DNA of 64,000 nucleotides from an uncultured Gammaproteobacteria bacterium. GTDB taxonomy: Bacteria > Pseudomonadota > Gammaproteobacteria > SZUA-229. Below, piece after piece: positions 30,774 through 35,067 of this stretch. A program made the position numbers and the translations under genes. The stretch lies in the NCBI GenBank assembly GCA_965602855.1, contig CBFCZV010000002.1, positions 25,659-89,658 of the forward strand, in the 5' to 3' direction. Positions within the stretch are counted from its first letter, which is position 1; the number at the start of each line of letters is the position of its first letter. The notes under the pieces were generated by a model, which made no database searches, had not been told where the DNA came from, and worked only from the letters and a program-made list of their open reading frames with translations.

Positions 30774-31286
30774 ATGGCACAACTCGAAATATTGCATTAC
30801 CCGGATGACCGTTTGCGTAAGCAGGCGAAACCGGTTGAAAAATTTGATAGTGAAATCCTAAAGCTGGTCGATGATATGTTTGAAACCATGTATGAGGCTC
30901 CGGGTATTGGTCTGGCCGCGACGCAGGTGAATGTTCATCAGCAGGTGATTGTGATTGATATCAGTCCAGAGAAAGATCAGCCGCTGTGCTTGATTAATCC
31001 TGAGATTATAGAAAGCAGTGGTGAAGAGATCTCCGCTGAAGAAGGCTGCCTTTCGGTGCCGGATATTTACGATAAGGTGCAGCGAGACGAGCGTGTTACC
31101 GTTAAAGCCTTCGACCAGCATGGTAAAGAATTCACCTTGCAGGCGGCTGAATTACTGGCGGTTTGTATTCAGCACGAAATGGATCATCTTCAGGGCAAGT
31201 TGTTCGTTGATTATCTGTCGCCGCTCAAGCAGCAAAGATACAGAAAAAAACTTGAGAAGAATCGCCGACTCAATGTGACGGTTTAA
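30774..31286 (+). CDS. def: peptide deformylase
   Basis: 170 aa; motifs GLAATQV, EGCLS, HEMDHL. Confidence 0.95.
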
Positions 31287-31291
31287 TTACT

Positions 31292-32248
31292 GTGACAGGT
31301 TCTATTCGAATTATTTATGCAGGAACACCGGACTTTGCCGTTGCGCCGTTAGTCGCGCTAATTGATGCGGGTTATAACGTAGTTGCGGTTTACACCCAGC
31401 CAGACCGCCCCGCTGGGCGAGGTCGTGAGCCAAGGCCTTCACCGATTAAACAAAAAGCACTTGAGCACACTATTCCTGTATTTCAGCCCGAAACGCTGAA
31501 ATCTGAAGATGACCAAAAAGCGTTAAGTGATTTAAATTCTGATCTGATGATCGTTACCGCCTATGGCCTACTGTTGCCCAAAGCCGTGCTCGATATGCCG
31601 CGTTTGGGTTGTATTAATGTGCATGCTTCCCTGTTGCCGCGATGGCGTGGTGCTGCGCCGATTCAACGGGCAATTCTGGCGGGTGATAAACAGACCGGTA
31701 TTACCATTATGCAAATGGATGAAGGACTGGATACGGGTGACATGCTGGCAGAGCAGATCTGTGATATCCGACATGATGATACTGGTTCAAATCTGCACGA
31801 TCGTCTAATGGCAATGGGAGCAGACATTTTATTAGAAATGCTGCCCGATTTTATCGAAGGTAAAATTACGCCGCAGAAACAGGATGATACGCAGGCGAAC
31901 TACGCCAGCAAGCTGAGTAAACAGGAAGCTGAAATCAACTGGTCATTATCGGCGGAACAAATTCACCGTAGCGTACTTGCCTACAATGCCTGGCCAGTGG
32001 CGTTTACGCACTGGCAGAAAAAGAACAAACAGGATGTATTGCGCGTCTGGCAGTCTAAAGTGCTGGATCAGTCTTCGACAAAAATGGCGGGTACGGTTTT
32101 AAGCTGTGGTAAAGAAGGCGTCGATGTAGCGACTGGTGAAGGTGTGCTGTGTTTATTGCAGGTACAGCCATCAGGTAAGAAAGCTATGGCTGCTTCGGAC
32201 TTTGCCAATGCGCATCATCTTGATGGCCAAGTACTGGGCAGGGAGTAA
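31292..32248 (+). CDS. fmt: methionyl-tRNA formyltransferase
   Basis: 318 aa; IIYAGTPDFAV N-terminus; HASLLPRWRGAAPI. Confidence 0.95.
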   Translation: MTGSIRIIYAGTPDFAVAPLVALIDAGYNVVAVYTQPDRPAGRGREPRPSPIKQKALEHTIPVFQPETLKSEDDQKALSDLNSDLMIVTAYGLLLPKAVLDMPRLGCINVHASLLPRWRGAAPIQRAILAGDKQTGITIMQMDEGLDTGDMLAEQICDIRHDDTGSNLHDRLMAMGADILLEMLPDFIEGKITPQKQDDTQANYASKLSKQEAEINWSLSAEQIHRSVLAYNAWPVAFTHWQKKNKQDVLRVWQSKVLDQSSTKMAGTVLSCGKEGVDVATGEGVLCLLQVQPSGKKAMAASDFANAHHLDGQVLGRE

Positions 32249-32316
32249 GGCGTATCGCCAGACAAAATAAAAAACAACAGAAGCCCGTTTCTGCCAGACA
32301 GGTTGCACTAGAAATA

Positions 32317-33591
32317 TTGCAGCAGGTTTTAATAAAAGGTCGTTCTCTAGTCGTCGCTAAATCAGCAGCAGACGTTTTAGAAAGCCGTGATCGTGGATTG
32401 GCGATGGAATTGGTTAACGGTGTTTTGCGTTGGCACTGGAAACTCAATTTTTTACTCAATCAATTCTTAAAAAAACCGTTACGCAATAAAGATCACGATG
32501 TAAAACTTTTGCTGCTGATGGCTTTGTACGAGCTGGTCGAGCTAAACACGCCGGATTATGCGGTGGTCAATGAAGCGGTCAGTGCGAGCAAGGTGCTGGG
32601 AAAGCAATGGGCGAAAGCCATGATCAACGGCGTGTTGCGTAACTTTATCCGTGACCAGGAAACTGTCCTGAAAAAAATGGAATCGAATCAGGAGGCGTAT
32701 TATTCACATCCTTACTGGTTGATTGCTTTATTAAAGAAAGACTGGCCAGATCGCTGGCAGGCAATTTTGGATGCCAATAATCAACGCCCGCCTTTATGGT
32801 TACGAGTAAATGCGGCACAAAATAAAACCGAAGCTTATAAATCCTTGCTAGAAGAACAGGGCTTACCTTCATCGCAGCATTCTTCTGCATTACAGGCTTT
32901 AAAACTGGAGCAGGGTGTAGATGTAACTTGTTTGCCAGGCTTTGCTCAGGGCACAGTTTCGGTGCAGGATGCCGGTGCTCAGTTTGCAGCAGCATTACTT
33001 GATGTTCAAAAAGGTCAACGTGTGCTGGACTTATGCGCAGCACCGGGTGGTAAAACCTGCCATGTGCTTGAGCTTGAAAAAGAAATTGAAATGATTGCGG
33101 TTGAACTCGAAGAAAAACGTATGTCTCGGGTTAAAGAAAACCTGAGCCGTTTAAATTTAGAAGCAGAGTTAATCGTCGCCGATGCCAGTGAGGACTCATG
33201 GTGGGATGGAAAGCAATTTGATCGCATCATGGTAGATGCGCCCTGTTCTTCTACTGGTGTAATTCGTCGTCATCCAGATATAAAAGTGCTGCGTTGGGAA
33301 GAAGACATAAAATCATTAGCTGAGATTCAGCAGAAAATTCTTCAACAGGCCTGGCAGATGCTGGCACCTGGCGGCAGACTTTTATACGTCACTTGCTCGG
33401 TGCTACGTCAGGAAAATGAAGCACAGATTGCCAACCTGTTAGCAACGCAAAACAATGTTGTTGAGCTGGATCTAATCGAAGAAGGTTCAAGTGAATGGGG
33501 GGTTGCCTGCAAACACGGTCGCCAGTTATTACCGGGTGAGCATGATACCGATGGCTTCTATTTTTGTGCTCTGAGCAAGTCTGAATCTTAA
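32317..33591 (+). CDS. rsmB: 16S rRNA (cytosine967-C5)-methyltransferase
   Basis: NusB-like N-terminal domain plus SAM MTase (DLCAAPGGKT, DAPCSSTG). The ORF track start is TTG 32317, but homology to E. coli RsmB extends upstream to about 32254 where no canonical start codon exists. Confidence 0.85.
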   Translation: MQQVLIKGRSLVVAKSAADVLESRDRGLAMELVNGVLRWHWKLNFLLNQFLKKPLRNKDHDVKLLLLMALYELVELNTPDYAVVNEAVSASKVLGKQWAKAMINGVLRNFIRDQETVLKKMESNQEAYYSHPYWLIALLKKDWPDRWQAILDANNQRPPLWLRVNAAQNKTEAYKSLLEEQGLPSSQHSSALQALKLEQGVDVTCLPGFAQGTVSVQDAGAQFAAALLDVQKGQRVLDLCAAPGGKTCHVLELEKEIEMIAVELEEKRMSRVKENLSRLNLEAELIVADASEDSWWDGKQFDRIMVDAPCSSTGVIRRHPDIKVLRWEEDIKSLAEIQQKILQQAWQMLAPGGRLLYVTCSVLRQENEAQIANLLATQNNVVELDLIEEGSSEWGVACKHGRQLLPGEHDTDGFYFCALSKSES

Positions 33592-33690: not shown

Positions 33691-35067
33691 ATGAATATTC
33701 TGATACTGGGAGCAGGGCAGGTTGGTTCATCGGTAGCCGCTAATCTGGCTTCTGAAGCCAACGATATTACGCTGGTTGATTCCAAAACTGAGTTGCTGGA
33801 TGACTTGCGTGATCGTCTGGATATCCAGACCGTTACCGGCCATGCCTCTAATCCACGGGTGCTGGTGCAGGCTGGCATTGAAGATGCTGATATGTTGATC
33901 GCTGTGACCAATAGCGATGAAACTAATATGATGGCCTGTCAGGTTGCTCATACTTTATTCCATACGCCCACAAAAATCGCACGAGTTCGTTCTGCCTCAT
34001 ATTTAAGTCATCGTGAGTTGTTCGGCAATGAGGCGGTGCCGGTGGATGTGCTGATTAGTCCTGAACAAATCATTTCCAGTTACGTACACCGTTTAATTGA
34101 ATACCCTGGTGCTTTGCAGGTACTGAACTTTGCGGATGGCAAGGTGCAGCTAGTGGGTATTAAGGCTTATTATGGTGGCCCTCTTGTTGGTCATGCGATT
34201 AGTACATTGCGTGAGCATGTGCCGAATGTTGATACCCGTGTGGCAGCGATTTATCGGCGTGGCAAGGGAATTGTGCCCAAGGGTGATCGTGTTATTGAAG
34301 CGGATGATGAGGTTTTCTTCATTGCAGCGCGTAAAGACATTCGCACGGTCATGTCTGAATTGCGCAGGATGGAGAATCCTTTCAAAAGAATCATGCTCGC
34401 TGGCGGTGGCAATATTGGCATGCGTCTGGCACAGGCGCTGGAAGGTCAGTATCAGGTTAAATTGCTGGAGCACAGCAAAAATCGTGCACAATTTTTGAGT
34501 CGGGAATTGAACTCATCAATCGTGTTGTTGGGCGATTCTGCGGATAAGGACTTATTGCTGGAAGAAAACATTGATCAGATGGATGTGTTCTGTGCGCTAA
34601 CCAATGATGATGAAGCCAATATACTTTCTTCCATGCTGGCAAAAGAACTAGGCGCGAGAAAAGTGATGTCGTTGATCAATCGTCCTGCTTATGTTGATTT
34701 AATCGAGAACCAGGAATCAATCGATGTAGCAATTTCTCCGCAGCAGGTGACTATTGGTGCATTGCTGACGCACGTGCGTCGTGGTGACGTGGTGGCTGTT
34801 CATGCTTTGCGTCGTGGTGCGGCAGAGGCGATTGAAGCGGTTGCACATGGTGACAGTAAAACTTCAAAAGTGGTTGGTCGTCAGGTTGATCAAATTGAGT
34901 TGCCCGAAGGTGCAACCATTGGTGCAATCGTTCGTGGTGATGAGGTAATAATGGCACACCATGATGTTGTTATTCAGGCTGAAGATCATTTGATCATGTT
35001 TTTGCTGGACAAGAAAAAAATCCATGAAGTTGAAAAACTTTTCCAGGTTGCTGTGACCTTTATCTAA
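33691..35067 (+). CDS. trkA: Trk potassium uptake NAD-binding protein
   Basis: 458 aa; two RCK/TrkA-N domains; [12 protein letters not shown]. Confidence 0.95.

What the first reader, a model, noticed from the sequence alone, without database searches (positions are those of the whole stretch)
32249..32330. rsmB lacks a canonical start codon where its conserved N-terminus begins
Homology to E. coli RsmB (KKQ...SARQVALEIL) runs in frame from about 32254, directly after the fmt stop. That stretch has no ATG, GTG or TTG. The first canonical start is TTG at 32317, which would delete about 20 conserved residues. An ATC codon at 32254 is preceded by GGGAG at appropriate spacing. The explanation is a non-AUG start (AUC or AUA), coupling/reinitiation, or a sequencing error.
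Basis: seen in the sequence. Interest (0 to 1): 0.25.

Follow-up and report, generated by a model that had tools for sequence, protein, structure and literature searches.

The report
rsmB starts at a conserved AUC codon
In this uncultured marine-sediment bacterium and all its sampled close relatives, the ribosomal RNA methylase gene rsmB most likely begins at a weak isoleucine-type codon (ATC) behind a good ribosome-binding site. This is a rare but known kind of start codon, and it makes gene finders cut off the protein's first 21 to 50 residues.

Summary
After the fmt stop (TAA 32246-48), the rsmB frame has no ATG, GTG or TTG before TTG 32317. RsmB homology nevertheless starts about 15-18 codons upstream of that TTG.

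ATC 32254 lies 8 nt after GGAG. In 14 distinct lineages of the same genus-level clade, an in-frame ATC (13) or ATT (1) sits 6-8 nt after a GGAG. That GGAG is kept at the nucleotide level although the Fmt residue it encodes varies. The codons after it show a coding pattern: synonymous Arg/Ala/Leu changes and a 15-nt in-frame insertion. The TTG is TTA in one species.

The stop-to-ATY spacer is 3, 4 or 5 nt. This rules out a conserved frameshift or read-through fusion, and 14 independent assemblies rule out sequencing error. The sister genus has GTG at the same place.

The same genome also starts infC and cysE at ATC, a nucleotidyltransferase at ATT, and probably murJ at CTG.

Across 117 judgeable other gammaproteobacterial genomes, rsmB lacked a canonical start in only one clear case (ATA). 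The trait is therefore lineage-specific.

First readers of this scan noted rsmB or fmt without canonical starts in other genomes.

Verdict: a genuine non-canonical start, a new member of a known kind. Direct proof of initiation is lacking.

The parts
30774..31286 (+). def (peptide deformylase), first gene of the def-fmt-rsmB-trkA row
   Evidence: ORF list. TIGR00079 at 214 bits against a cut-off of 104.
31292..32248 (+). fmt (methionyl-tRNA formyltransferase), GTG start, TAA stop
   Evidence: TIGR00460 at 318 bits against a cut-off of 201.
32242..32245 (+). Shine-Dalgarno GGAG (GGGAG from 32241), inside the last two sense codons of fmt
   Evidence: Sequence. In 14 lineages the penultimate fmt codon encodes R, A, M, E, T or K but always ends in G, and Ala is always GCG. 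GGAG is therefore kept as nucleotides, not as protein.
32246..32248 (+). fmt stop codon TAA
32249..32253 (+). 5-nt non-coding spacer between the fmt stop and the rsmB start
   Evidence: Its sequence is not conserved, and its length is 3, 4 or 5 nt in relatives.
32254..32256 (+). Proposed rsmB start codon ATC (AUC)
   Evidence: It is the only conserved near-cognate codon. Relatives have ATC in 13 lineages and ATT in 1, placed 6-8 nt after GGAG. The sister genus has GTG at this place.
32257..32316 (+). Codons 2-21 of RsmB: a variable basic tail (2-12) and the start of helix 1 of the NusB-like domain (13-21)
   Evidence: Codon alignment shows synonymous changes (AGA/CGA/CGG, GCC/GCT, CTA/CTG) and a 15-nt in-frame insertion in one species. 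Profile and PDB alignments support it.
32317..32319 (+). First canonical start codon (TTG), judged an internal Leu codon
   Evidence: No GGAG, GAGG or AGGA lies upstream. It is TTA in L007. Starting here would remove profile positions 1-19.
32404..32406 (+). ATG (Met51) used by the automatic gene call for this very gene (395-aa product)
   Evidence: P0003 is 395 aa and begins MELVNG.
32254..33591 (+). rsmB coding sequence as proposed (445 aa plus stop)
   Evidence: PRK10901 at 532.9 bits against a cut-off of 375. 1sqf matches at E 1e-105.
33691..35067 (+). trkA, the downstream neighbour
   Evidence: NF007032 at 753 bits.

Best explanation
rsmB of this genus is translated from the AUC codon at 32254-56. 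The 30S subunit is positioned by the GGAG embedded in the last codons of fmt, 8 nt upstream. Initiator fMet-tRNA pairs with AUC despite a third-position mismatch, so the product would begin fMet-Ala-Arg-Gln. This gives a full-length 445-aa RsmB with an intact first helix of its NusB-like domain.

AUC is a poor start codon that IF3 discriminates against. The expected result is low, IF3-sensitive output of RsmB. The strong, selectively maintained SD, the A-rich codons after the start, and the closeness of the fmt stop (ribosomes terminating 5 nt upstream) probably offset this partly.

Shown here: the anatomy, its conservation, the coding signature, and the exclusion of error and recoding. Inferred: that AUC is the codon actually used, that it is read by initiator tRNA, and that the consequence is low or IF3-dependent expression.
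For: 1. No canonical start lies between the in-frame stop (32221-23) and the conserved N-terminus.

2. All 7 species genomes of the genus that hold the gene's 5' end, plus 7 further metagenomic lineages, have an in-frame ATC (13) or ATT (1). It sits 6-8 nt after GGAG and directly after the fmt stop.

3. The Ile codon is invariant, whereas the next 11 codons vary freely.

4. GGAG is kept although the Fmt residue it overlaps varies (R, A, M, E, T, K; Ala always GCG).

5. Codons 13-21 change synonymously, and one species carries a 15-nt in-frame insertion.

6. The TTG is TTA in L007 and has no SD.

7. Sister-genus G010 and the proteins at 63-65% identity start with GTG or ATG at the equivalent place.

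8. The same genome starts infC at GGAGG-N8-ATC-GCT, and this holds across the whole family. It also starts cysE at ATC. AUC starts therefore probably function in this lineage.

9. Automatic gene calls for the clade start at mutually inconsistent places (395-439 aa). This is the usual symptom of a missed start.

10. AUC supports about 5-8% of AUG activity with native initiator tRNA in E. coli reporters (PMC3643588). An ATC start of dnaA was proven by N-terminal proteomics in Deinococcus (PMC2830850).
Against: There is no direct evidence of initiation. The organisms are uncultured, and the tool for finding sequencing runs was unavailable.

The C of ATC is not more conserved than third positions of other invariant Ile codons in the gene: 7 of 12 such columns have the same codon in at least 6 of 7 species. 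Codon identity alone therefore does not prove start function.

Two lineages have a canonical codon further in (ATG at codon 8 in L127, GTG at codon 12 in L135) and might use it.

NCBI's record for one relative (P0027) places the start at a different ATT, at codon 12. That choice rests on homology, not experiment.
Confidence: 0.8

Rival explanations
1. Pure termination-reinitiation. Ribosomes that finish fmt at TAA 32246-48 stay on the mRNA and restart at the nearby AUC. Free 30S subunits essentially never start there, so RsmB is made only in proportion to Fmt translation. This is a variant of the best explanation (same start codon), not an opposite.
For: The fmt stop lies 3-5 nt before the ATY in all 14 lineages, and the SD lies inside fmt. 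infC in this genome has the same layout after thrS: GGAGG, TAA, 3 nt, ATC. There is no separate promoter-sized gap.
Against: GGAG is maintained at the nucleotide level, which suggests SD-dependent positioning matters. The ATT-start nucleotidyltransferase and the ATC-start cysE have SDs of their own. Whether an upstream gene ends next to them was not determined. The question cannot be decided from sequence.
Confidence: 0.1
2. The true start is the first canonical codon, TTG 32317 (or ATG 32404 as the gene caller chose). RsmB here lacks the first part of helix 1, and the upstream similarity is a relic.
For: TTG is the first ATG/GTG/TTG in frame. Dropping the 21 codons costs only 5 bits of the family score.
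Against: A relic would not keep the frame open. It would not show synonymous-type substitutions or accept only an in-frame 15-nt insertion across species that are 77-86% identical. The TTG is TTA in L007. No SD lies before TTG. The ATG 32404 start would delete 50 residues of the NusB-like domain.
Confidence: 0.05
3. Recoding: a frameshift or stop read-through at the end of fmt makes an Fmt-RsmB fusion, so rsmB needs no start codon of its own.
For: The rsmB frame is open for 10 codons upstream of ATC, overlapping the fmt end. In one lineage (L133/L085) rsmB is in the same frame as fmt, 3 nt after TAA.
Against: The stop-to-ATY spacer is 5 nt in most lineages, 4 nt in L003, L004 and their relatives, and 3 nt in L133. 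The required shift would differ between close relatives. No conserved slippery heptamer is present in the last fmt codons. The upstream open stretch varies from 1 to 50 codons.
Confidence: 0.02
4. Sequencing or assembly error has destroyed an ATG in this metagenome-assembled genome.
For: The genome is a 115-contig MAG. Reads could not be checked.
Against: The same ATY, with no canonical start, occurs in 14 distinct sequences from independent samples and assemblers (NCBI, ENA, JGI, Logan).
Confidence: 0.01

Closest known systems
infC (IF3) AUU start codon of E. coli and many bacteria, the cis element of IF3 autoregulation (Sacerdot et al. 1996, cited as ref. 2 in PMC3643588)
   Same: An Ile-type near-cognate codon replaces AUG. 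A strong SD lies in the last codons of the upstream gene, and the upstream stop lies a few nt before the start. In this very genome infC reads GGAGG-N8-ATC-GCT, and rsmB reads GGAG-N8-ATC-GCC.
   Different: The gene is rsmB, not infC. The codon is AUC rather than AUU. No regulatory role has been shown. The trait is confined to one genus, whereas the infC trait is very widespread.
dnaA ATC start in Deinococcus, shown by N-terminal proteomics (PMC2830850)
   Same: A conserved housekeeping gene has a lineage-wide ATC start, mis-annotated by gene finders and recognised through conservation of the N-terminus.
   Different: That case has peptide evidence, and this one has none. The gene and the phylum both differ.
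pcnB AUU start of E. coli (discussed in PMC2830850)
   Same: A weak Ile-type start keeps expression of a non-abundant RNA-modifying or RNA-processing enzyme low.
   Different: The codon is AUU, the gene is different, and that case was shown experimentally.
Ordinary fmt-rsmB junction of other Gammaproteobacteria (for example sister genus G010, where GTG overlaps the fmt stop as TAGTG)
   Same: Same operon, same position of the start relative to the fmt stop, and the same protein N-terminus.
   Different: The start codon is canonical. 116 of 117 judgeable class-level genomes have ATG, GTG or TTG before or at the conserved Arg.

Membership tests
Genes with a non-canonical (AUU/AUC/AUA/CUG) bacterial start codon | No ATG, GTG or TTG lies between the upstream in-frame stop and the conserved N-terminus of the protein family | tested here: met
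   Profile and PDB alignments begin 11-15 codons before the first canonical codon.
Genes with a non-canonical (AUU/AUC/AUA/CUG) bacterial start codon | An in-frame near-cognate codon is preceded by a Shine-Dalgarno motif at 5-10 nt | tested here: met
   GGAG 32242-45, an 8-nt gap, then ATC 32254. The gap is 6-8 nt in relatives.
Genes with a non-canonical (AUU/AUC/AUA/CUG) bacterial start codon | The near-cognate codon is conserved in relatives while flanking positions vary | tested here: met
   14 of 14 lineages have ATC or ATT. The spacer and codons 2-12 vary. The third base alone is not significantly more conserved than in other Ile codons.
Genes with a non-canonical (AUU/AUC/AUA/CUG) bacterial start codon | Direct evidence that translation starts there (N-terminal peptide, start-site ribosome profiling, toeprint) | not testable with these tools
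infC-type IF3-controlled genes | Expression rises when IF3 is limiting and falls when IF3 is in excess, depending on the non-AUG codon | not testable with these tools
   Only the cis anatomy matches.
RsmB, 16S rRNA (cytosine967-C5)-methyltransferase | The score exceeds the curated cut-off of the equivalog models | tested here: met
   PRK10901 at 532.9 bits (cut-off 375). TIGR00563 at 401.7 bits (cut-off 269).
RsmB, 16S rRNA (cytosine967-C5)-methyltransferase | NusB-like N-domain, ferredoxin-like linker and RsmB/F methyltransferase domain, with the two catalytic Cys motifs (PCS and TCS; the identity of these motifs is from my own knowledge of E. coli RsmB) | tested here: met
   Pfam PF01029, PF22458 and PF01189 all match. 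DAPCS and TCS align with those of 1sqf.
Programmed frameshift or read-through fusion | A fixed frame relation between the two ORFs and a conserved slippery or read-through context | tested here: not met
   The spacer is 3, 4 or 5 nt in close relatives, and no shared slippery site exists.
Translational coupling by termination-reinitiation | The stop of the upstream gene lies within a few nt of the downstream start | tested here: met
   The distance is 3-5 nt in all lineages.
Translational coupling by termination-reinitiation | Downstream translation depends on upstream translation | not testable with these tools
   This needs a reporter experiment.

The most novel reading that the evidence does not exclude
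The AUC start may be a sensor rather than merely a weak start.

IF3 rejects AUC, and immature or assembly-defective 30S subunits bind IF3 poorly and initiate more readily at non-cognate codons (E. coli rbfA and ksgA mutants, PMC6868393). An AUC-started rsmB would therefore be translated more when IF3 is scarce relative to 30S, or when immature 30S subunits accumulate.

That would create a feedback supplying more RsmB, which both methylates C967 and chaperones 30S assembly (abstract of PMC13674486, listed, not read in full). The logic parallels infC, which carries the same ATC-GCY start in this genome.

The simpler version, in which ribosomes lacking m5C967 read AUC better, is not supported. 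Deleting rsmB did not change AUC, AUU or AUA initiation in E. coli (PMC3643588).
Probability: 0.12. Interest if true: 0.6.

Novelty: new member of a known kind. Interest (0 to 1): 0.3.

Why it matters
Practically, every automatic annotation of this clade's RsmB is N-terminally truncated by 6 to 50 residues and starts at inconsistent places. The same is probably true for cysE, a nucleotidyltransferase and murJ in this genome. Gene finders restricted to ATG/GTG/TTG miss such genes systematically.

Biologically, the case adds a genus-wide, long-maintained AUC start in a ribosome-biogenesis gene to a short list of well-supported non-canonical starts. It also shows a lineage in which at least four or five genes use such codons, with infC using AUC rather than AUU. 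That makes the lineage a useful natural test bed for how far IF3 discrimination can be bent. If the AUC start links RsmB supply to IF3 or 30S status, it would be a second infC-like circuit.

Tried and rejected
1. Autoregulation through m5C967 itself. E. coli data show no effect of rsmB deletion on AUC, AUU or AUA initiation, so this was dropped to a low-probability variant.

2. Special conservation of the third base of ATC. It is not distinguishable from other invariant Ile codons (7 of 12 have the same codon in at least 6 of 7 species).

3. An RNA structure masking or exposing the start. The 100-nt fold is no more stable than shuffles (z = 0.13).

4. The out-of-frame ATG at 32223 (a 15-codon ORF ending at TAA 32268-70) as a leader or a frameshift entry. 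In L002 it stops after 4 codons, so it is not conserved.

5. rsmB as a class-wide hot spot for non-canonical starts, an idea prompted by earlier scan notes. Among 119 surveyed gammaproteobacterial genomes (117 judgeable), one clear further case appeared (ATA in G167). One other has TTG right after the Arg, and one is cut by a contig end. fmt was flagged in 0 of 109. The trait is rare and lineage-specific.

6. An unusual initiator tRNA. aragorn finds three CAT-anticodon tRNAs and nothing odd, but only counts were inspected.

7. Read-level check of the assembly.

8. A crude genome-wide scan for further cases. It is noisy: rsmB and infC ranked only 65th and 77th by coding score. Of the candidates followed up, trpB and cysQ have normal ATG starts, and four small ORFs gave no informative match upstream of their first canonical start.

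Full report
**Observation**

The window carries the usual gammaproteobacterial row def (30774-31286), fmt (31292-32248), rsmB and trkA (33691-35067) on the + strand. fmt ends with GAG TAA at 32243-48.

The rsmB reading frame is open from 32224, after TGA 32221-23. It contains no ATG, GTG or TTG until TTG 32317. ATC lies at 32254-56, 8 nt after GGAG (32242-45).

A stretch of 31 codons without a canonical start is not improbable by chance (about 0.2). The point is that family homology begins well before the TTG:
- The NCBIfam RsmB model PRK10901 aligns from residue 7 of the ATC-started protein (profile position 4). It aligns only from profile position 20 if the protein starts at TTG.
- Pfam NusB aligns from residue 13.
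- E. coli RsmB (PDB 1sqf) residue 4 aligns with residue 11.

**Relatives**

The window belongs to a 2.63-Mb metagenome-assembled genome. Its named relatives are only called 'MAG: Gammaproteobacteria bacterium'. The genus has ten species genomes in the collection, and seven hold the 5' end of rsmB. Seven further distinct lineages were recovered from metagenome contigs.

All 14 sequences share the same anatomy:
- fmt ends in G-GAG-stop.
- A spacer of 3, 4 or 5 unconserved nucleotides follows.
- An in-frame ATC (13 lineages) or ATT (1 lineage) comes next.
- Eleven poorly conserved Lys/Arg/Gln/Ser-rich codons follow.
- The conserved SARQVALxIL helix comes after that.

In 11 of the 14 lineages there is no canonical start codon before the helix. 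The exceptions are an ATG at codon 8 (L127), a GTG at codon 12 (L135), and one GTG inside the fmt overlap of L003.

The sister genus (G010) has GTG at the place of the ATY, overlapping the fmt stop as TAGTG. The proteins at 63-65% identity begin with M or V followed by K(R/Q/H)S.

**Why the upstream codons are translated**

Across the seven species, codons 13-21 keep their amino acids while changing synonymously: Arg AGA/CGA/CGG, Ala GCC/GCT, Ala GCA/GCG, Leu CTA/CTG. One species has a 15-nt in-frame insertion in the tail. Of 20 aligned codons, 13, 9 and 19 vary at positions 1, 2 and 3.

The TTG that would be the first canonical start is TTA in L007 and has no SD in front. Automatic gene calls for the clade begin at a scatter of places and give 395-439 residues. 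This window's own call starts at Met51 (ATG 32404) and gives 395 aa.

**Why the ATY is the start**

It is the only near-cognate codon conserved in all lineages. It is invariant as Ile, whereas the following eleven residues drift. It keeps a 6-8-nt distance from GGAG.

That GGAG is conserved as nucleotides, not as protein. The penultimate fmt codon is AGG, GCG, ATG, GAG, ACG or AAG (six different amino acids, always ending in G). Where it is Ala it is always GCG, in a 44% G+C genome.

The spacer length of 3, 4 or 5 nt means that rsmB stands in all three possible frames relative to fmt among close relatives. A conserved frameshift or read-through fusion is therefore excluded, and translation must begin at or after the spacer. 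Fourteen independent assemblies exclude a sequencing error.

**Support from the same genome**

infC of this genome reads GGAGG-AATAAAAG-ATC-GCT, with no canonical start before codon 20. The ATC is conserved in all genomes of the family that hold the gene, and in several neighbouring families. This lineage therefore uses AUC where E. coli uses AUU.

A crude scan of the genome, followed by profile checks, found further genes whose conserved N-terminus precedes the first canonical codon:
- cysE: TAGGAG-N6-ATC. The TIGR01172 profile (positions 2-162) aligns to residues 4-164. Genera g1 and g2 have ATC or ATT, while other genera have ATG or GTG.
- A sugar-nucleotidyltransferase: AAGGAG-N5-ATT-ATT. 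The GxGxRL motif lies 30 codons before the first TTG. Three congeners have TTG one codon upstream, where this genome has TTT.
- Probably murJ: AAAGGAG-N7-CTG, with profile position 1 at residue 4.

rsmB is therefore one of at least four or five such genes in this genome.

**How general it is**

Earlier first-reader notes of this scan mention rsmB or fmt without canonical starts in other genomes. I therefore surveyed the def-fmt-rsmB junction in 119 other gammaproteobacterial genomes, mostly one per genus.
- rsmB has a canonical start at or before the conserved Arg in all but three.
- One of the three is cut by a contig end.
- One has TTG directly after the Arg.
- One (G167, L202) has ATA overlapping the fmt stop (TCATAAAC), three codons before the Arg, which is the modal position of the start. 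This is a probable independent case.
- fmt was flagged in 0 of 109.

The trait is rare and lineage-specific, not a property of rsmB in general.

**Mechanism**

The best-supported reading (0.8) is initiation at AUC by initiator tRNA with a third-position mismatch, positioned by the SD. In E. coli reporters, AUC with the native initiator tRNA gives about 5-8% of AUG activity (PMC3643588). An ATC start of dnaA was proven by N-terminal proteomics in Deinococcus (PMC2830850).

The fmt stop 3-5 nt upstream makes a contribution of termination-reinitiation likely, but sequence alone cannot measure it. No particular RNA structure surrounds the start.

Low, IF3-sensitive expression is the expected consequence. 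Whether that is used for regulation is unknown. The attractive idea that unmethylated ribosomes read AUC better is contradicted by the E. coli data. A variant through IF3 level or 30S immaturity (PMC6868393) remains possible but untested.

**Comparison and verdict**

In anatomy this matches the infC, pcnB and Deinococcus dnaA class of non-canonical starts. It meets every sequence-level criterion of that class but lacks the experimental one. The protein is a normal RsmB, above the equivalog cut-offs, with all three domains and both Cys motifs.

It is a new member of a known kind. It is of modest interest in itself, somewhat raised by its clade-wide maintenance, by the parallel with infC in the same genome, and by the annotation errors it causes.

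Noticed in passing
G000:C36:23221 (L136:1489): infC of this genome starts at ATC (GGAGG, 8 nt, ATC GCT), 3 nt after the thrS stop. There is no canonical start before codon 20. The ATC (not ATT as in E. coli) is conserved in every family member searched and in several neighbouring families.
   Followed up: yes
G000:C13:180 (L164:180-965): cysE (serine O-acetyltransferase) has no canonical start before its conserved N-terminus. TAGGAG, 6 nt, then ATC is the likely start. Genera g1 and g2 have ATC or ATT, and other genera have ATG or GTG.
   Followed up: yes
G000:C13:36309 (L163:510-1343): A sugar-nucleotidyltransferase has its GxGxRL motif 30 codons upstream of the first canonical codon. AAGGAG, 5 nt, then ATT ATT is the likely start. 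Three congeners have TTG one codon upstream, where this genome and G009 have TTT. This looks like a recently lost canonical start.
   Followed up: yes
G000:C85:1592, minus strand (L316:10-1563:-): murJ probably starts at CTG, 7 nt after AAAGGAG. TIGR01695 profile position 1 aligns with residue 4, and the first canonical codon is residue 12.
   Followed up: partly
L202 (G167:C6:500309-502709), rsmB start near locus position 2100: An unrelated gammaproteobacterial genome also has no canonical rsmB start. ATA overlaps the fmt stop (TCATAAAC), three codons before the conserved Arg. This is a probable independent non-canonical start.
   Followed up: partly
P0027 (NCBI record of the L006/G003 type): NCBI's annotation of one congener starts RsmB at an ATT read as Met (MSARQ...). 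That is codon 12 of the frame, not the conserved ATT at codon 1. The other listed clade proteins in public collections (395-439 aa) start downstream of the conserved ATY, at inconsistent places.
   Followed up: partly
window 32223-32270: An out-of-frame ATG opens a 15-codon ORF across the fmt stop and the rsmB start. It is not conserved, because it stops after 4 codons in the closest relative.
   Followed up: yes
window 31286-31292: fmt itself starts with GTG, 5 nt after the def stop. In the class sample, the canonical codon nearest upstream of the conserved Fmt N-terminus was ATG in 62, GTG in 27 and TTG in 20 of 109 genomes.
   Followed up: partly
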